From: Patescibacteria group bacterium
GTDB taxonomy: Bacteria; Patescibacteriota; Patescibacteriia; Magasanikbacterales; GWA2-37-8
Reading direction: 5' to 3'
DNA: 64,000 bases
NCBI GenBank assembly: GCA_004321885.1
Contig: SCQK01000014.1
Coordinates: 1-64,000 of the forward strand
This document shows, piece after piece, positions 14,069 to 46,337 of the stretch. The position numbers were made by a program, and so were the translations under genes. A model generated the notes under the pieces. The model ran no database searches and was not told where the DNA came from. It was given only the letters and a program-made list of their open reading frames with translations. The number at the start of each line of letters is the position of its first letter. The stretch's first letter is position 1.

Positions 14069-14419
14069 ATGTCTGAAATAAAAATAATTGACACAAAAAT
14101 TTCAATAGCCGAATTGAAAGAAGCCGCCGAACAGGTTTTTGGTGATTTTGTGAAAGTGGTGGTAGATTTGGAAAGAGTAAAAATGGCGATTGGCGGAGAA
14201 CTGCATGCCGACGAGGAGGCCGTACTTTTAGGGAACGGCTCCAAACAGGAAAATTTGTGGGGGATAAATTTGTATCCGGCTAATTTCGGCGGCGAAGATT
14301 TTATTGAGTTTGATTCAATGGTAAACATTAAGCCGGGCCTGGGCAATTTTTCGCGAGCAATAAAGAGCGAAGAAGTCAGAAAGAAAATAAAAGAGGCGGT
14401 GGCGAAGCTGGTTGGATAA
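14069..14419 (+). CDS. Hypothetical small protein
   Basis: 116-aa ORF in the co-oriented gene array, flanked on both sides by C/G palindromic repeat elements. Confidence 0.5.
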   Translation: MSEIKIIDTKISIAELKEAAEQVFGDFVKVVVDLERVKMAIGGELHADEEAVLLGNGSKQENLWGINLYPANFGGEDFIEFDSMVNIKPGLGNFSRAIKSEEVRKKIKEAVAKLVG

Positions 14420-14468: not shown

Positions 14469-14807
14469 ATGGCTGAATACATCCACCAAAATTTATCTGT
14501 CGGCCGATGGTTTGAACTTAGTTTATGTGAACAATTGGGCAATGTGGGAAGCGAAGTCGGACGCGCGGCCAATTGGCGACGGAAAAATCAGGGCGAGCAA
14601 TCGGAAAAGGCGATAGAGCGGGGGATGGAATTGCTGGATTTGACGATTGCGGACGCGCGTTGGGCGGGCGCGCGCAGAAAAGAGCTATGTCGCGCGCGAG
14701 AATTGATTAAAGACGTGTTTTACGGCGACAATCAATATCACGATTCGCCGGAAGCGCTGGAAAAATATTTTTTCCAGTTCGCGTTGGCGGCGAGAAGAAA
14801 CAATTAA
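14469..14807 (+). CDS. Hypothetical small protein, possibly an all-alpha NTP-pyrophosphohydrolase (MazG-like) fold
   Basis: Segments EQLGNVGSEVGRAA and MELLDLTIADARW loosely resemble the paired EExxE/ELGD helices of MazG-like proteins; the match is weak. Confidence 0.35.
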   Translation: MAEYIHQNLSVGRWFELSLCEQLGNVGSEVGRAANWRRKNQGEQSEKAIERGMELLDLTIADARWAGARRKELCRARELIKDVFYGDNQYHDSPEALEKYFFQFALAARRNN

Positions 14808-14826
14808 ATTGCGGCTTAAAAGCAGT

Positions 14827-16674
14827 ATGACAGAAGGAACAACTCTCAACCGCGCTATCAAAAATCAAGAAATTTGGAAGTTTAATGTTGAAAAAGATGG
14901 TCTCTATTTGATTACAATTAACGCGCGATGCAAAAATTGGCTTCAGAGTTTTCGGCGTCTATTCAACGACGATGATTTGGCGGTTCAAATTGATGATCAT
15001 TTGCTTGCTGAATTGGCGGGGAAAAAACGTGAATTCAATCAGCCGGGCGCTTGGAATGGGAACGACTTGAAAAACAATTTCAAAACCGTTCTGATGTTGC
15101 TCCCCTTAAAATCCGGCACCCACGAAATCAAATTTTGGACAGACGGGGCGCCATACGTGGAAACGCCGAAGATAAAAGAAATCAAATTAACGCGAGAAAT
15201 ATTGATTGACGCGCCGGATGCTAAAGCAGCGGACTTAATCATTAAAAATATTTTAGCGGAAAATGTAGAAGTTATCGGCAAGGGAGCGACAAAAAAGATT
15301 GAAGTGGTCTACGCGCAAGATAAAATTTTCGCCTCTCCCTTAAAGAGAATAAAAGATCAACCGATTTCTTCCGTTAAAATCCGGCTCAAAAAAGAGGAAT
15401 TAAAATACAAAGTCGGAAAAATCAAATTATACAAAGATTTAGTTCTGTCAGATGAGGTAAATTTACGCGCAAGGCCCAATGATGGTTCAGAAATAATCGC
15501 GCGCATTCCTGATGGGGAAGAAGTAAATATTATTAATGAACGGGCGATGGAAGACGACCGTCAAAAATCCTATATAGCTTCATATTCTTATATTTGGCAT
15601 GAAGTTCTTTGGCAAGACAAATTCGGACAAGAGAAGAGCGGGTATGTGCTTTCTTCTTTTGTGGAAATACAGGGACAAGAGAGACAGACGATAATAAATC
15701 TCATAACAACCAAAAGTCGCGAACAAGGCGTGGACCCAAATATAATGTTGGCGATCGCTGGGCAAGAGTCGCGCTTCAAGCCATTTGCTGTGCCATCGAC
15801 GGGGCCGAAGGGCGTTTTTCAACTATCAGGCGATACAGCCGAGCGGGTGGGTGTGAAAGATCAATTTAATTTTTTTCAAAACGTGGAAGGTGGCGTAAAA
15901 TATTACAAAATAATTGAAAATCAATTCGCTGGTCGCGGGAATGTTTTGGAAAGAAGATTGTTGGCTTGGCATGACGGGCCAAGCAAGATACCCGAAAGAG
16001 GAAAGGTTGATCTAAGTAAGTTCTCTGCCGAGTCGCAAAAATTTGTGAAAAATGTTTTGCAAAACATTAAACGGAAGGACTGGTTCCATCTCTCTTCTTC
16101 CGTTATAGCGATTTTATTCGCTATCGCCGGTTCTTTTGTGGGTTATTTACAACACGATATATCAAAATTTGAGGAAAGCGCGGCTATATCTGTCGCCCAG
16201 GCGGCCGAAAGCGACAATTTTAGAAAATTTATTTTTCACGATGAAGCCGTGCCTTTGATTGTCGTCAAAAGCATCGGTACATTTCGTCCATTTCCGAATT
16301 TTCGCGCTGATTTTTATTATAGAAATAGCTGGGGCATGTCGTTTCATGAAACTTTAGACGGCTATTTAGACGATGCCGGATGGACATATTTGGGAAGACA
16401 AAAACTAATTTTTTGGGTGAGGCGCGAAGAGGGTCATTATCTGCCTACTTCATTTTTTATGTTTGATAATAGCACGGAAACTTTTAAAATGATAAAGTTT
16501 ATCGATCGTGATGGTAGAATTTACAATGATGTCAGCGCGCCTTATGATATTTCAACAGAAGGCGACGAGAGCTTTCTGAGCAAAGAAATTCGGCAAACTT
16601 GGGGTGACGTAGGCAAACCCGAAGTGAAGGAGTATAAGTATGATTGGGAGAAGAATGTGTTTAATGAGATATAG
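14827..16674 (+). CDS. Membrane-anchored lytic transglycosylase (SLT domain) with an unrecognised N-terminal domain, an SH3b-like segment and a C-terminal domain beyond one TM helix
   Basis: SLT catalytic region AIAGQESRFKPFAVPSTGPKGVFQLS; TM segment WFHLSSSVIAILFAIAGSFVGYL; N-terminal ~130 aa are shared with the 44340..46337 paralog. The track start 14809 is TTG; the first ATG is 14827. Confidence 0.7.
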   Translation: MTEGTTLNRAIKNQEIWKFNVEKDGLYLITINARCKNWLQSFRRLFNDDDLAVQIDDHLLAELAGKKREFNQPGAWNGNDLKNNFKTVLMLLPLKSGTHEIKFWTDGAPYVETPKIKEIKLTREILIDAPDAKAADLIIKNILAENVEVIGKGATKKIEVVYAQDKIFASPLKRIKDQPISSVKIRLKKEELKYKVGKIKLYKDLVLSDEVNLRARPNDGSEIIARIPDGEEVNIINERAMEDDRQKSYIASYSYIWHEVLWQDKFGQEKSGYVLSSFVEIQGQERQTIINLITTKSREQGVDPNIMLAIAGQESRFKPFAVPSTGPKGVFQLSGDTAERVGVKDQFNFFQNVEGGVKYYKIIENQFAGRGNVLERRLLAWHDGPSKIPERGKVDLSKFSAESQKFVKNVLQNIKRKDWFHLSSSVIAILFAIAGSFVGYLQHDISKFEESAAISVAQAAESDNFRKFIFHDEAVPLIVVKSIGTFRPFPNFRADFYYRNSWGMSFHETLDGYLDDAGWTYLGRQKLIFWVRREEGHYLPTSFFMFDNSTETFKMIKFIDRDGRIYNDVSAPYDISTEGDESFLSKEIRQTWGDVGKPEVKEYKYDWEKNVFNEI

Positions 16675-16676
16675 GT

Positions 16677-17075
16677 ATGTCCAAATTCGCGGAAAAATTT
16701 TGGGGGGTGATGTTGAGCAAAAGCGTGTTGATTATCCTACAAATTTTATTGTGGATAGTAGCATTTGTTTTAATTTATTCAAGGATCTCTGGTGAATTAA
16801 CGCAACCCCTCGTATCTTTGCAAGTTTTTGTAATTTTTGTTTATTTATATCCGCTTAGTATTTTAGTATTCTTCAGCATGTTCAGTGCTGATTTTTCGCA
16901 GGCATCTGTTCTTCTTTTACTGGCTTATTATTTTTTGATGGTCTATTCCTTAACGAAGATAAATAAAGAGACTAGGTACAAAAAATATTTTGCATTTGCT
17001 TATTTACTATTTATGGTTTTGAGTTTTATAGGAGTAATTATATCTTATTTATCTCTCAATTTTGTTAGTATTTAA
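16677..17075 (+). CDS. Small polytopic membrane protein, hypothetical
   Basis: Four hydrophobic helices; start overlaps the upstream stop by GTATG. Confidence 0.5.
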   Translation: MSKFAEKFWGVMLSKSVLIILQILLWIVAFVLIYSRISGELTQPLVSLQVFVIFVYLYPLSILVFFSMFSADFSQASVLLLLAYYFLMVYSLTKINKETRYKKYFAFAYLLFMVLSFIGVIISYLSLNFVSI

Positions 17076-42665: not shown

Positions 42666-42689
42666 GATTCCAGCGTTCGCTGGAATGAC
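42666..42689. repeat. Family B hairpin (inverse orientation): GATTCCAGCG-ttc-GCTGGAATGAC, overlapping the bactofilin start codon
   Basis: Its reverse complement GTCATTCCAGCGAACGCTGGAATC matches the consensus of the 62324 and 63209 copies; the ATG at 42685 lies in the 3' arm. Confidence 0.5.
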
Positions 42690-43179
42690 AAGTAAAAATA
42701 TTATGATTTTTCAAAGAACTCCCAAATATCAGGAAGCCGAGGAAAGTTTTCAAAACGAAGAGGCGGCCGCGGGCGCCGATAACGTGGAAACCGTGGTGGG
42801 GCCATCGGTAAACGTGGAGGGCGATTTTTCATCCGAGGGCAATATCGTGGTGAAAGGCACGGTGGCCGGCAGTGTGCACACCAGCAAGCATTTGTCCGTG
42901 GAAGAGGGCGCCAAGATAATGGCCAACGTCAAAGCCGGCAGCGCGCGCGTTGCGGGCGAGGTAAAGGGCAATATGAAAATAAAAGAAACTTTGGAGCTGA
43001 CCGCCTCGGCCCGGGTGCTGGGCGATATTGAGGTGAAGACCATACAGATAGAATCTGGCGCCTTGCTTTACGGGCGAATAATCATGCCCGGCCTGGAGGG
43101 AATGGAACCGAAAACTTCGCGTCAAAAATACACGACCCGCAAGAACGATTCCTTGCCGGCAGAGAGTTTGCTGAATTAA
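42685..43179 (+). CDS. Bactofilin-like (beta-helical cytoskeletal) protein
   Basis: Repetitive V/G-rich beta-strand repeats (NIVVKGTVAGSVHTSKHLSVEEGAKIMANVKAGSARVAGEVKGNMKI) typical of the bactofilin DUF583 core. Confidence 0.65.
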   Translation: MTSKNIMIFQRTPKYQEAEESFQNEEAAAGADNVETVVGPSVNVEGDFSSEGNIVVKGTVAGSVHTSKHLSVEEGAKIMANVKAGSARVAGEVKGNMKIKETLELTASARVLGDIEVKTIQIESGALLYGRIIMPGLEGMEPKTSRQKYTTRKNDSLPAESLLN

Positions 43180-43996: not shown

Positions 43997-44083
43997 GCCC
44001 GGGTGGCGAAACTGGAAGACGCATATCCTTGAGGTGGATACGGCCGCAAGGCCTTGGAGGTTCGAGTCCTCTCCCGGGCACCA
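43997..44083 (+). tRNA. tRNA-Leu (anticodon GAG), class II with long variable arm, CCA encoded
   Basis: Acceptor stem GCCCGGG/CCCGGGC, anticodon stem TATCC/GGATA with loop TTGAGGT, variable arm CGGCCGCAAGGCCTTG, T-arm GGAGGTTCGAGTCCTCT, and 3' ACCA. Confidence 0.85.
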
Positions 44084-44092
44084 AATAAACTT

Positions 44093-44335
44093 ATGCGCAT
44101 CATTATTGGCATCATCATGGCGCTCGCGGGCGTGCTCGTGATAATAAAATCCGAGTGGTTTATCGCGAACTTCGGCGCCAGCGCCTGGGCCGAAGAAAAG
44201 CTGGGCACGAGCGGCGGCACGCGCCTAATGTACAAGCTGTTGGGGCTATCTTTTATTTTTATCGGCTTCCTTTTGATTACAAATTTAATCGGCGGATTTT
44301 TGATGGCGACAGTGGGCAGATTGTTTATCAGATAG
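44093..44335 (+). CDS. Small two-TM membrane protein, hypothetical
   Basis: MRIIIGIIMALAGVLVII...; the track start 44054 lies inside the tRNA, so the first ATG after the tRNA is used. Confidence 0.4.
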   Translation: MRIIIGIIMALAGVLVIIKSEWFIANFGASAWAEEKLGTSGGTRLMYKLLGLSFIFIGFLLITNLIGGFLMATVGRLFIR

Positions 44336-44339
44336 TAAT

Positions 44340-46337
44340 ATGATTCTGATAAAAAAAGACGACGAACTTGACATCGCGATAAGGAAAAGTCACAGTTACG
44401 CATTTTCAACGCCCCATAGCGGGTTGCATTTAATTGAAATCGTCGCGAAAGCCAATAGTTGGTGGCAAAATTTGAAAAGTTTTAAGTCATTTTTAAACGA
44501 CGATGATTTGGTGGTGAAAATAGATGAAACGGAATTTCCAAAATTAAGCGGCCGGAAGGGGTTATTCAATGGAGAGGCGGCGTGGAACGGCGACAACCTG
44601 AAAGGAAATCTAAAGACGGGAATATTTTTGGTTAGTTTGGCATCGGGCGCTCACGTGATAAATTTTTTCGCCGATCAAAAGCCGGTGTTAAAAGGTGTAA
44701 GAATTTATAAAATCGAGCAGGGAGAACCGTATGTGCCGGAAAAAAATAATCCGCCACAAGACGGAGACAGGCGGCAGTGGATGACAATCGCCCTGATTGA
44801 TTTGAGTTTGAAAAGTTTGTTTATCAGCGCTGTCGTTGGCGCTCATCAGAGAGATGACAGCGATATCAAGTTGATTGTTGACGGAAAAATTATACAAAAT
44901 GAGCAAAAAAATTCACACAAGAATTGGTTTTGGTGTGGTAATTTATCAAAAGGAGAACCAAGGGAACTCAACAAAGAGTTGAATCTGCCGAAAGGGTTGC
45001 ATTATGTGGAATTATGGGCGGACAAGACGCCAAAGTTATTGGAATTAAGAATCAATGTCGATAAAGATGATTCCAGAATTAAAGCCAAAATTATTTGGCA
45101 AACCGCCGCGTTAAGGAGAGAGCCAAATCAAAAGGCAGATACTGTAGCTGAGATTTCCGAAGGCAAACAAGTAATAATATTAGAAAAGGCGGTTTTGGGG
45201 AAAAGACCCGCGAACGTAAATGGCGTGTTACTTTCTTCCGACCGTTGGCACAAGGTTGAGTATGAAAACAATGTCGGGTATATTTATTCGGAGGCGGTAG
45301 AGATTGAGGGAGAGGATCCAAAAACGATTGAAAAATTTATTTTGAGCAAAGCCGAAGAAGTGGGAGCAGACGGATGCCTGATGGCGGCGATTGCCAAACG
45401 TGAATCGCATTTTTTCCCCTATGCGGTTTCCGGCGCTGACGCGAAGGGTTTGTTTCAAATGGTAAAAACGTCCCTGACCGATGTAAACGATATTTTTGAC
45501 AAAAAAATTGATAATCTTTTTAATATCGCGCAATCTACAGAAGCGGCAATTTTGTATTTTACAATAATTAGAGAAAGATATAAAAATAAGAACGATTTCC
45601 TTAGAAGATGCTTAGCCGCATGGAATTGGGGCAAAGGAAACGTTGATCCAGGTAATTCATTTTTAATGAAAAAATTGCCTGGCGAAACCCGGATATTTAT
45701 CAACGAGGTTCTAAAAAATTATAATGATTGCAAAAGTAGGTCTGTTTTAAAAGGAAAAATAAATTTATTATTCTTATTGATGAGCGGTTTTTTTATTTCC
45801 GCGATATTATTATCGTTTGCCATTTTTTTTGCTTTCGATGACAAAAATTATAAAGAGCCGCCGTCATATTATGGCGACAATTTTGTTTTAGCCGAGCATG
45901 AAATAGACGTGGATGGCGATGGAACAAAAGAAAAACTGGTCGTCATTAGAGACAAATTAAACTCAACATTTGGCATGACAAGAAACATTTTAGTGAGAAG
46001 TAACGGAAGGTTGCGTGAGTTGTCAAAAGAGGAGGGAAATTTTCTTTGGTGGAAGGTGGGCGATTTCAACGATAACGGCAAAGTTGATATCGCAATTCAT
46101 TATGGATATACCGGTAGCGGTGAGTTTGGAAAGTTTTATTTACAAGAGTGGAACGGAAAAGATTTTACGACTGTATTTATCAGAGAAGATGTTGACAATA
46201 AAGTAAATTTTGTTGATTTGAATCACGATGGAATGGAAGAGATTATTTATACTTATCGGCTGTCAAAGTGGAAGCCAGATAGGTATGATATTTATCAGTG
46301 GAATGCTTTTTCTTCCAAATTAATCCTATATAAGTAA
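44340..46337 (+). CDS. Membrane-anchored lytic transglycosylase (SLT domain), paralog of 14827..16674, with FG-GAP-like C-terminal repeats
   Basis: SLT region MAAIAKRESHFFPYAVSGADAKGLFQM; TM LLFLLMSGFFISAILLSFAIFFAF; C-terminal DVDGDG, DFNDNGKVD and DLNHDGMEE motifs; N-terminal domain shared with the paralog. Confidence 0.7.
   Translation: MILIKKDDELDIAIRKSHSYAFSTPHSGLHLIEIVAKANSWWQNLKSFKSFLNDDDLVVKIDETEFPKLSGRKGLFNGEAAWNGDNLKGNLKTGIFLVSLASGAHVINFFADQKPVLKGVRIYKIEQGEPYVPEKNNPPQDGDRRQWMTIALIDLSLKSLFISAVVGAHQRDDSDIKLIVDGKIIQNEQKNSHKNWFWCGNLSKGEPRELNKELNLPKGLHYVELWADKTPKLLELRINVDKDDSRIKAKIIWQTAALRREPNQKADTVAEISEGKQVIILEKAVLGKRPANVNGVLLSSDRWHKVEYENNVGYIYSEAVEIEGEDPKTIEKFILSKAEEVGADGCLMAAIAKRESHFFPYAVSGADAKGLFQMVKTSLTDVNDIFDKKIDNLFNIAQSTEAAILYFTIIRERYKNKNDFLRRCLAAWNWGKGNVDPGNSFLMKKLPGETRIFINEVLKNYNDCKSRSVLKGKINLLFLLMSGFFISAILLSFAIFFAFDDKNYKEPPSYYGDNFVLAEHEIDVDGDGTKEKLVVIRDKLNSTFGMTRNILVRSNGRLRELSKEEGNFLWWKVGDFNDNGKVDIAIHYGYTGSGEFGKFYLQEWNGKDFTTVFIREDVDNKVNFVDLNHDGMEEIIYTYRLSKWKPDRYDIYQWNAFSSKLILYK

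What the first reader, a model, noticed from the sequence alone, without database searches (positions are those of the whole stretch)
14469..17075. Paralogous membrane lytic-transglycosylase proteins with an unrecognised shared N-terminal domain, each preceded by a tiny membrane protein (second locus 44093..46337)
The two large proteins (14827..16674 and 44340..46337) share a four-part architecture. An N-terminal ~130-aa domain aligns clearly between them: NDDDLAVQIDDHLLAELAGKKREFNQPGAWNGNDLKNNFKT...SGTHEIKFWTDGAPYV versus NDDDLVVKIDETEFPKLSGRKGLFNGEAAWNGDNLKGNLKT...SGAHVINFFADQKPVL. This is followed by an SH3b-like stretch, an SLT catalytic domain with the ES motif retained, one TM helix and a large C-terminal domain (FG-GAP/VCBS-like in the second copy). 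I cannot assign the N-terminal domain to any family I know. Neither protein has a signal peptide, so with a single TM the SLT domain and the C-terminal domain are predicted on opposite sides of the membrane. That is odd for a peptidoglycan-cleaving enzyme. Each gene directly follows a small co-oriented ORF that I could not assign to any family (14469..14807; the two-TM protein at 44093..44335). The first also has a downstream small polytopic membrane protein (16677..17075). If the genome is of the small-celled, host-attached lineage its gene content suggests, such an enzyme could act on host or own wall. This could also be a conserved multi-gene module rather than a lone enzyme.
Basis: partly seen in the sequence, partly recalled or inferred. 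Interest (0 to 1): 0.65.

Follow-up and report, generated by a model that had tools for sequence, protein, structure and literature searches.

The report
Patescibacterial wall-cutting enzymes with wrong-side topology
Two genes in this candidate-phyla-radiation genome encode membrane-anchored peptidoglycan-cutting enzymes that carry an unclassified sugar-binding-type domain and, oddly, no export signal, and this build is conserved in about 340 related protein clusters, but the small neighbouring genes are not part of it.

Summary
The two proteins exist as described: A is 14827..16674 and B is 44340..46337. They are true paralogues (BLASTP E 6e-23 for the N-terminal domain, 2e-27 for SH3b+SLT).

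The odd layout holds across the family:
- No N-terminal hydrophobic segment in 78 of 80 long members.
- One TM helix after the catalytic domain.
- K/R bias on the enzyme side in 60 members against 4, which predicts the lytic part facing the cytoplasm.
- The catalytic Glu-Ser is nearly invariant.
- Some members carry a SleB-type hydrolase in place of SLT.
- The post-TM domains fall into at least four unrelated classes.

The multi-gene module idea fails. The ORF before A has no TM helix, and no small membrane ORF lies directly upstream in any of 54 loci.

The closest precedent for the topology is the Enc34/M4Lys phage endolysins. How the enzyme reaches the wall is unresolved.

The parts
14827..16674 (+). 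Protein A (615 aa). Family member with an A-type C-terminal domain. NCBI TAN32629.1, 'hypothetical protein'.
14827..15201 (+). A: first jelly-roll domain (aa 1-125), the unclassified N-terminal domain.
   Evidence: Profile match to HMM positions 5-141, E 1.9e-49. 40% identical to the B domain.
15202..15441 (+). A: shortened, degenerate region (aa 126-205) in the position of the second jelly-roll.
   Evidence: Only a marginal profile match. Aligned to JR2 of other members in A3/A4.
15454..15666 (+). A: SH3b domain (aa 210-280).
   Evidence: Pfam SH3_3, 28.4 bits against a cut-off of 27.
15700..15990 (+). A: SLT lytic transglycosylase domain (aa 292-388). Catalytic Glu314-Ser315 at 15766..15771.
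   Evidence: Pfam SLT, E 8.6e-11. E314, S315 and Q332 are nearly invariant in 71 members.
16081..16152 (+). A: single TM helix (aa 419-442). The K/R-rich flank is on the N-terminal (SLT) side.
16153..16671 (+). A: A-type C-terminal domain (aa 443-615). No known relatives. Predicted to lie outside the membrane.
44340..46337 (+). Protein B (665 aa). Family member with a B-type (FG-GAP-like) C-terminal domain. NCBI TAN32657.1, 'hypothetical protein'.
44340..44711 (+). B: jelly-roll domain 1 (aa 1-124).
44772..45059 (+). B: jelly-roll domain 2 (aa 145-240), a diverged tandem copy.
45105..45299 (+). B: SH3b-like domain (aa 256-320).
   Evidence: Pfam SH3_3, 22.6 bits (below the cut-off of 27). It aligns with the SH3b of A. 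40 of 71 family members match SH3_3.
45351..45647 (+). B: SLT domain (aa 338-436). Catalytic Glu355-Ser356 at 45402..45407.
   Evidence: Pfam SLT, E 1.9e-14. The nearest solved relative by sequence is MltC.
45753..45845 (+). B: single TM helix (within aa 472-502). The K/R-rich flank is on the SLT side.
45846..46334 (+). B: FG-GAP/VCBS-like C-terminal domain with three DxDxDG-type loops. Predicted to lie outside the membrane.
   Evidence: Pfam FG-GAP_3 weak match. A profile search against PDB hits FG-GAP proteins at E 6e-9.
14469..14807 (+). Adjacent 112-aa ORF. It is soluble with no TM helix. It is a real protein family but not a conserved partner of the enzyme.
44093..44335 (+). Adjacent 80-aa two-TM ORF, immediately after tRNA-Leu. 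It is annotated at NCBI but has no homologue in 62 related loci, so it is not a conserved partner.
16677..17075 (+). Adjacent 132-aa hydrophobic ORF filling the gap between A and aspS. It appears unannotated at NCBI and has no homologues in related loci. It is of uncertain reality and is not a conserved partner.

Best explanation
A and B are two anciently diverged paralogues of a Patescibacteria-restricted family of single-pass membrane peptidoglycan lytic transglycosylases.

Domain order:
- A tandem of a previously unclassified beta-jelly-roll domain. The second copy is degenerate in A.
- An SH3b domain.
- A family-1 SLT catalytic domain with an intact Glu-Ser.
- One TM helix.
- A lineage-variable domain of 170-280 aa. 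This is FG-GAP-like in B and of unknown type in A.

Shown here: the domain make-up, its conservation, the absence of any signal peptide, the conserved catalytic residues, and the stand-alone gene context.

Inferred mechanism:
1. The jelly-roll and SH3b modules bind the wall polymer and position the SLT domain, which cleaves MurNAc-GlcNAc bonds.
2. The protein inserts N-in/C-out. The variable C-terminal domain is displayed on the cell surface and the muralytic part is held at the cytoplasmic face.
3. The enzyme therefore behaves as a tethered, latent wall-cutter. It reaches peptidoglycan only by a non-Sec route, as the C-terminally anchored Enc34/M4Lys phage endolysins somehow do.

My estimates for the separate steps are about 0.85 for identity as a modular membrane LT family, about 0.6 for N-in/C-out, and about 0.35 for the latent, non-Sec access step. 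The small flanking ORFs are not partners.
For: Paralogy.

Domains: (SLT in 46 of 71 members, SH3_3 in 40 of 71, FG-GAP_3 in 18 of 71).

Catalytic residues: E314, S315 and Q332 are nearly invariant in 71 members.

Family size and position of the domain: 339 representatives at E<=1e-3 and 208 at E<=1e-10. The domain nearly always starts at residue 1-10 of proteins of 600-750 aa.

Taxonomy: all 22 genome loci are CPR MAGs.

Wall-targeting role: the same N-terminal tandem is fused to a different wall hydrolase (Hydrolase_2, SleB type) in L018, L020 and L021, with the same layout of no signal peptide, then a TM helix, then a C-terminal domain.

Topology:
- 78 of 80 long members have no N-terminal hydrophobic segment.
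- Among the 69 long members with a strong TM segment (KD at least 1.9), the K/R count is higher on the N-terminal flank in 60 and on the C-terminal flank in 4.
- The B-type C-terminal domain is related to extracellular Ca-binding FG-GAP proteins.
- The C-type and D-type C-terminal domains carry conserved paired cysteines.

Precedent: the Enc34 and M4Lys endolysins have an N-terminal catalytic domain, no signal peptide and a C-terminal TMD. M4Lys lyses cells without holin or Sec, and both need the TMD for toxicity. The mechanism is unknown (PMC8943055, PMC7143992).

Context: the gene follows MreC-PBP2 in L007 and MreB-MreC-M23 in L008.
Against: SLT, SH3b and CBM-like jelly rolls are all domains that normally work outside the cytoplasm. 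The jelly-roll domain also occurs in multiple copies in proteases that have an N-terminal signal or anchor (P0083, P0122). A cytoplasmic location for the N-terminal part is therefore functionally awkward.

The topology rests on the positive-inside rule and on domain homology. No dedicated topology predictor or experiment was used.

No full-length model could be made. The single-sequence run failed (pLDDT 32).

No enzymatic or binding data exist.

The Enc34/M4Lys analogy is architectural only. Those are small phage proteins with a two-helix C-terminal TMD and no ectodomain, and their mechanism is itself unknown.
Confidence: 0.5

Rival explanations
1. Conventional ecto-enzyme with N-out topology. 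The whole N-terminal muralytic part (jelly rolls, SH3b, SLT) lies outside the membrane and remodels the cell's own wall. It is anchored by the TM helix, and the variable C-terminal domain is cytoplasmic. Export uses an unrecognised route.
For: All three N-terminal domain types are normally extracytoplasmic. The jelly-roll domain occurs in secreted proteases. The gene follows mreBC/PBP2/M23 wall-growth genes in two loci. Enc34/M4Lys-type enzymes show that an N-terminal lytic domain can reach the wall without a signal peptide.
Against: The K/R bias is 60 to 4 in favour of the N-terminal flank facing the cytoplasm. No bacterial mechanism is known for translocating a folded N-terminal part of about 450 aa without a signal, as stated in PMC8943055. 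FG-GAP-like Ca-binding repeats and paired cysteines in the C-terminal domains argue that these domains are outside.
Confidence: 0.2
2. Host-directed weapon of an epibiont. The enzyme is aimed at the wall of the host bacterium at the contact site. The variable surface domain recognises the host, and the lytic part is delivered by T4SS, by pili or through a local membrane opening.
For: The family was recovered only from Patescibacteria loci. Genomes often hold several paralogues that differ mainly in the outer C-terminal domain. Reviews propose that patescibacterial lytic transglycosylases compromise host envelopes (PMC11665869).
Against: The immediate neighbours are housekeeping genes: aspS, trpS-like, rpoBC, mreBC and aldolase. 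Secretion genes were not looked for systematically. No recognisable secretion signal is present. Nothing ties the family to host contact.
Confidence: 0.15
3. The enzyme forms a holin/endolysin-like or type-10-secretion-like module with the small membrane proteins next to it. Alternatively it is a prophage lysis gene.
For: B is preceded by a 2-TM, 80-aa ORF, and A is followed by a small polytopic ORF. The SLT domain matches phage lytic-protein PHROGs.
Against: The ORF before A has no TM helix. The 2-TM and polytopic ORFs have no homologues in 62 loci. A small membrane ORF lies directly upstream in 0 of 54 loci and directly downstream in 1 of 52. Two viral-contig scans found no relatives. The neighbours are housekeeping genes. 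The PHROG matches cover only the generic SLT domain.
Confidence: 0.04
4. Signal-transducing or scaffold protein. The outer domain senses a ligand, and the cytoplasmic 'SLT' part has a role unrelated to the wall, for example acting on imported muropeptides or on precursors.
For: The predicted N-in topology. The outer domains are variable and receptor-like.
Against: The catalytic Glu-Ser and the other family-1 LT motifs are conserved. The enzyme is accompanied by two kinds of polymer-binding modules, which make little sense for soluble substrates. The catalytic domain is swapped for another wall hydrolase in some members.
Confidence: 0.06

Closest known systems
Family-1 lytic transglycosylases (Slt70, MltC, MltE; Pfam SLT PF01464)
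   Same: The catalytic domain matches the SLT HMM above its gathering score. The Glu-Ser catalytic motif and the downstream Gln and aromatic motifs are conserved. MltC is the nearest solved structure by sequence.
   Different: The known enzymes are exported by a signal peptide or lipobox. Here no export signal exists, and the TM helix follows the catalytic domain. The accessory domains (jelly-roll tandem, SH3b, post-TM domain) also differ.
Enc34 / M4Lys-type phage endolysins (N-terminal catalytic domain plus C-terminal TMD)
   Same: A wall-degrading domain at the N-terminus, no signal peptide, and a membrane segment C-terminal to the enzyme. These proteins are the only described precedent I found for this 'wrong-side' arrangement (PMC8943055, PMC7143992).
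   Different: Those are phage proteins of about 26 kDa, encoded in lysis cassettes. They have a PHA02564-type catalytic domain, a two-helix TMD at the extreme C-terminus and no ectodomain. A and B are 615-665-aa chromosomal proteins with an SLT domain, one TM helix and a large post-TM domain. No phage relatives were found.
CBM6/CBM35-type carbohydrate-binding modules and related jelly rolls (GH115 C-terminal domain, CDTb RBD1, collagen-binding domain)
   Same: The beta-jelly-roll fold. They sometimes occur in tandem. They are attached to enzymes that act on polysaccharides.
VirB1-like hydrolases of monoderm T4SS (PrgK, TraG of pIP501)
   Same: Membrane-anchored multidomain wall hydrolases that contain an SLT domain in monoderm-type envelopes (background given in PMC12102498).
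   Different: Those have an N-terminal TM anchor that places the enzyme outside, carry CHAP or LytM partner domains, and lie inside T4SS operons. None of these features applies here, as far as was examined.
SleB/CwlJ cortex-lytic enzymes (Pfam Hydrolase_2)
   Same: Some family members (L018, L020, L021) carry this catalytic domain in place of SLT. From my own knowledge, CwlJ also lacks a signal peptide.
   Different: A and B themselves carry SLT. Sporulation is not known in Patescibacteria.

Membership tests
Family-1 lytic transglycosylase (Pfam SLT PF01464) | Match to the SLT profile above the curated cut-off | tested here: met
   A scores 41.9 bits and B 53.7 bits against a cut-off of 21.3. 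46 of 71 family members match.
Family-1 lytic transglycosylase (Pfam SLT PF01464) | Catalytic Glu in the Glu-Ser motif, plus the downstream conserved Gln | tested here: met
   E314, S315 and Q332 (A numbering) are nearly invariant in 71 aligned members. In B these are E355-S356.
Family-1 lytic transglycosylase (Pfam SLT PF01464) | Extracytoplasmic placement through a signal peptide, lipobox or N-terminal anchor | tested here: not met
   There is no N-terminal hydrophobic segment in A or B, or in 78 of 80 long members. No upstream start is possible. The TM helix follows the SLT domain.
Family-1 lytic transglycosylase (Pfam SLT PF01464) | Cleavage of MurNAc-GlcNAc bonds with formation of 1,6-anhydro-MurNAc | not testable with these tools
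   This needs recombinant enzyme acting on sacculi, analysed by LC-MS.
Bacterial SH3 domain (Pfam SH3_3 PF08239) | Profile match above the cut-off | tested here: inconclusive
   A scores 28.4 bits against 27 (met). B scores 22.6 bits (below the cut-off) but aligns to the domain in A. 40 of 71 members match at E<=0.01.
CBM6/CBM35-like carbohydrate-binding modules | Beta-jelly-roll fold | tested here: met
CBM6/CBM35-like carbohydrate-binding modules | Sequence membership in a defined CBM family | tested here: not met
   There is no Pfam, NCBIfam or PDB-sequence match for residues 1-250. A few members give weak sub-threshold GH115_C or AMPK1_CBM hits.
CBM6/CBM35-like carbohydrate-binding modules | Demonstrated carbohydrate binding | not testable with these tools
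   This needs pull-down with sacculi or glycan arrays.
Enc34/M4Lys-type endolysins | N-terminal lytic domain, no signal peptide, TMD C-terminal to the enzyme | tested here: met
   The family is described in PMC8943055 and PMC7143992.
Enc34/M4Lys-type endolysins | PHA02564-type catalytic domain, two-helix TMD at the extreme C-terminus, phage lysis-cassette context | tested here: not met
   The catalytic domain is SLT. There is one TM helix followed by 170-280 aa. No phage relatives or phage neighbours were found.
Holin/endolysin or type-10-secretion-like module | A small membrane (holin-like) gene conserved next to the hydrolase gene | tested here: not met
   A small membrane ORF lies directly upstream in 0 of 54 loci and directly downstream in 1 of 52. 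There are no homologues of the window's small membrane ORFs in 62 loci.
VirB1-like T4SS hydrolases | Location in a T4SS gene cluster (virB4, virD4 and others) | tested here: inconclusive
   The immediate neighbours in the window and in 62 loci are housekeeping or unrelated genes. Neighbours were not systematically scanned with T4SS profiles.
FG-GAP/VCBS repeat domain (C-terminus of B) | Repeated DxDxDG Ca-binding-type loops matching FG-GAP profiles | tested here: inconclusive
   Pfam FG-GAP_3 scores 21.8 bits in B, below the cut-off of 26.9. A profile of 14 B-type domains hits FG-GAP proteins in PDB at E 6e-9 to 1e-5. Three Asp-rich loop positions (D31, D81, D136-G137-E140) are nearly invariant in that alignment.

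The most novel reading that the evidence does not exclude
Patescibacteria routinely make wall-cutting enzymes whose whole N-terminal lytic part of about 450 aa is synthesised without any export signal. It is either stored on the cytoplasmic face or moved across the membrane by its own downstream TM segment. That would be a chromosomal, housekeeping counterpart of the unexplained holin- and Sec-independent route of M4Lys/Enc34 endolysins. The interchangeable surface domain would decide where or when the wall (own or host) is opened.
Probability: 0.25. Interest if true: 0.8.

Novelty: new variant of a known kind. Interest (0 to 1): 0.52.

Why it matters
Patescibacteria make up a large share of bacterial diversity. 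They live attached to other cells, and it is not known how they remodel their own wall or breach a host wall.

This family is restricted to them in the genome loci recovered here. It is often present in several copies per genome, and it is annotated only as 'hypothetical protein'.

It offers three things:
- A new wall-associated beta-sandwich domain family with a confident model.
- A set of interchangeable surface domains that may encode specificity.
- A conserved architecture that conflicts with the usual rules for exporting wall hydrolases.

If the lytic part does cross the membrane without a signal, the family gives a tractable, non-phage system for studying the unexplained translocation seen in Enc34/M4Lys endolysins. 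If it stays inside, it would be a latent lysin whose trigger is worth finding.

Tried and rejected
No full-length model could be made, so contacts between domains were not examined.
- The word-index homology search with the A+B N-domain alignment returned only four fragments. The exhaustive profile search was needed to see the family.
- The afdb50 fold library was not available.
- The diverse 56-sequence alignment was too variable for pattern-based locus finding. Smaller alignments, A2 and A7, worked.
- Two scans of viral contigs found no relatives. BFVD fold matches were generic jelly rolls with TM-score at most 0.33. I rejected a phage origin.
- A-type, C-type and D-type C-terminal domains gave no Pfam or PDB matches. 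The A-type and B-type domains are unrelated by profile-profile comparison.
- The PliI and XAC2610 (lysozyme-inhibitor and immunity protein) similarity of the B-type C-terminus is weak: Pfam PliI E 0.63 in B and 6.6e-5 at best in two members; PDB 3od9 E 0.008; 4qtq E 1. It covers only about 40-50 residues of the repeat region. I did not adopt an 'inhibitor domain' reading.
- Literature searches found no description of this family.
Full report
**What is in the sequence.** The two ORFs are present as described: A at 14827..16674 (615 aa) and B at 44340..46337 (665 aa). They are identical to the NCBI models TAN32629.1 and TAN32657.1 of a 'Patescibacteria group bacterium' MAG, both named 'hypothetical protein'. 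BLASTP aligns them in two blocks. The N-terminal domain is 40% identical over 117 aa (E 6e-23), and the SH3b+SLT block is 30% identical over 233 aa (E 2e-27). Pfam finds SLT in both, well above its cut-off. SH3_3 is above its cut-off in A and just below it in B. FG-GAP_3 matches weakly in the C-terminus of B, and nothing matches the first ~200-250 residues. NCBIfam and PHROGs see only the SLT domain.

Neither protein has an N-terminal hydrophobic segment, and the reading frames exclude a hidden upstream start. Each has one strong TM segment after the SLT domain, at aa 419-442 in A and aa 472-502 in B. The post-TM domains of A and B are unrelated. B carries a second, diverged copy of the N-terminal domain, whereas A keeps only a shortened remnant.

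**The small flanking ORFs.** The ORF before A (14469..14807) has no TM segment, so the finding's title is wrong on that point. The ORF before B (44093..44335) has two TM segments and starts ten bases after a tRNA-Leu gene. The hydrophobic ORF 16677..17075 fills the gap between A and aspS. Its exact sequence is not in the protein collection, and A and aspS carry consecutive NCBI accessions, so it appears unannotated.

I fetched 22 loci from species-representative genomes and 40 from metagenomes. In these:
- The 2-TM ORF and the polytopic ORF have no homologue.
- The 112-aa ORF recurs twice (L020, L028) and is never adjacent to the enzyme gene.
- A small membrane ORF lies directly upstream in 0 of 54 cases and directly downstream in 1 of 52.
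- Neighbours differ from locus to locus and are mostly housekeeping genes.

**The N-terminal domain is a real family.** A word-index search found only four fragments. An exhaustive profile search over 1.84 billion representatives found 339 proteins at E<=1e-3 and 208 at E<=1e-10. The domain nearly always starts at residue 1-10 of proteins of 600-750 aa, and usually occurs as two tandem stretches. All 22 genome loci are CPR/Patescibacteria MAGs, labelled Paceibacterota, Parcubacteria, Moranbacteria, Magasanikbacteria and others; a few carry other automatic names.

**Evidence that it is a wall-targeting module.** In L018, L020 and L021 the same N-terminal tandem is joined to a Hydrolase_2 (SleB-type) domain instead of SLT. 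The layout is otherwise the same: no signal peptide, a TM helix near residue 410, and a C-terminal domain. Multiple copies also occur in two large proteases that do have an N-terminal hydrophobic signal or anchor: P0083 (Peptidase_C25) and P0122 (subtilase). Conserved Trp/Asn/Gly loops and Asp clusters recur at equivalent positions in both repeats. Binding to peptidoglycan or another wall polymer is inferred from these observations and has not been shown.

**The enzyme looks active.** In 71 aligned full-length members, Glu314, Ser315 and Gln332 (A numbering) are nearly invariant. MltC is the closest solved structure by sequence.

**The topological oddity is conserved.**
- Of 80 members of at least 550 aa, 78 lack any N-terminal hydrophobic segment. 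The two exceptions are the proteases.
- In the 69 with a strong TM segment (KD at least 1.9), that segment is typically near residue 420-500, followed by a median of about 200 residues.
- Among those 69, the K/R count in the 15 flanking residues is higher on the N-terminal (enzyme) side in 60 and on the C-terminal side in 4.

By the positive-inside rule this predicts N-in/C-out. The post-TM domains fall into at least four unrelated classes:
- The B type (48 sequences) is related to extracellular Ca-binding FG-GAP proteins, at E 6e-9 against a secreted esterase. It also hits PL11 lyases and integrin alpha.
- The C type has four conserved cysteines.
- The D type has a conserved Cys pair four alignment columns apart.

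Both observations fit an outside location for the C-terminal domain. Yet SLT, SH3b and CBM-like domains are also 'outside' domains, so both sides of one TM helix carry extracytoplasmic-type modules.

**Precedent.** Phage endolysins of the Enc34/M4Lys type have an N-terminal catalytic domain, no signal peptide and a C-terminal TMD. M4Lys lyses E. coli without holin and under Sec inhibition. For both proteins the TMD is required for toxicity. [quoted passage not shown] That is the closest functional analogue. Membership fails, however: the catalytic family differs, those proteins have a two-helix terminal TMD and no ectodomain, and they sit in phage lysis cassettes. The family described here has no relatives in two viral-contig scans.

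**Context and copy number.** A-type and B-type orthologues each have closer full-length relatives in other genomes than A has to B: 41% identity to L007 and 46% to L009, against 30-40% between A and B. The duplication is therefore old. Several genomes or contigs carry two or more copies, for example L012, L023, and the pairs L008/L014 and L011/L015. In L007 the gene follows MreC, a 4-TM ORF and a PBP2-type transpeptidase. In L008 it follows MreB, MreC and an M23 peptidase. This is a weak hint that the target is the cell's own wall.

**Verdict.** The two genes belong to a Patescibacteria-restricted family of modular, single-pass membrane lytic transglycosylases. The family has a newly delineated tandem jelly-roll domain and a conserved, unexplained 'no signal peptide, TM after the enzyme' plan. 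The small neighbouring ORFs are incidental.

My preferred mechanism is a surface-displayed variable domain with the lytic part tethered at the cytoplasmic face, reaching the wall by a non-Sec route. This is an inference with moderate confidence. An N-out ecto-enzyme and a host-directed role remain open. I found no published description of the family.

Noticed in passing
window 16677..17075: A 132-aa ORF with about four hydrophobic segments exactly fills the 400-bp gap between gene A and aspS. Its sequence is absent from the protein collection and A and aspS have consecutive NCBI accessions, so it appears unannotated. It has no homologue in 62 related loci. In L002, aspS follows the enzyme gene after 26 bp. 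It could be a lineage-specific small membrane protein or non-coding filler.
   Followed up: partly
window 43997..44083 and 44093..44335: A tRNA-Leu(GAG) gene lies ten bases upstream of the 80-aa two-TM ORF that precedes gene B. The ORF is annotated at NCBI (TAN32656.1) but has no relatives in the loci examined.
   Followed up: partly
window 14069..14419 and 14469..14807; L028 4141..4880: A DUF5674 protein (Pfam E 4e-33) and the 112-aa soluble ORF form a pair that is also adjacent in L028, about 1.1 kb upstream of that locus's family gene. The 112-aa protein recurs alone in L020. The function of both is unknown.
   Followed up: partly
L001, L004/L005, L010, L018, L019/L027, L044, L047: IS200-like Y1 transposase-type genes (motif YHxxNRG; Pfam Y1_Tnp in L004) lie next to the family gene in several unrelated loci, on either side. 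This may only reflect their abundance in CPR genomes.
   Followed up: no
L024/L026 (near-identical), L031 6094..6765, L046 5670..6347: A polytopic membrane protein of about 220 aa (weak, sub-threshold Acyl_transf_3 match) lies directly downstream of the family gene, with a gap of 0-34 bp or a 3-bp overlap, in three independent loci. It is unrelated to the window's downstream ORF.
   Followed up: partly
L007 2516..5901; L008 2532..5901: The family gene directly follows wall-elongation genes: MreC, a 4-TM ORF and a PBP2-type transpeptidase in L007, and MreB, MreC and an M23 peptidase in L008.
   Followed up: partly
P0083 (1332 aa), P0122 (1257 aa), P0112, P0103: The jelly-roll domain occurs in 4-5 copies in other proteins. 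These include a Peptidase_C25 protease and a subtilase, both with an N-terminal hydrophobic signal or anchor, so the domain is not confined to wall hydrolases.
   Followed up: partly
L018 5977..7746, L020 2252..4003, L021 5992..7746: Family members in which the SLT domain is replaced by a Hydrolase_2 (SleB/CwlJ-type) domain, while the N-terminal tandem, the TM helix and a C-terminal domain with a conserved Cys pair are kept.
   Followed up: partly
window 42685..43179: An ORF about 1.2 kb upstream of gene B looks like a bactofilin-type cytoskeletal protein by eye. It was not checked with Pfam.
   Followed up: no
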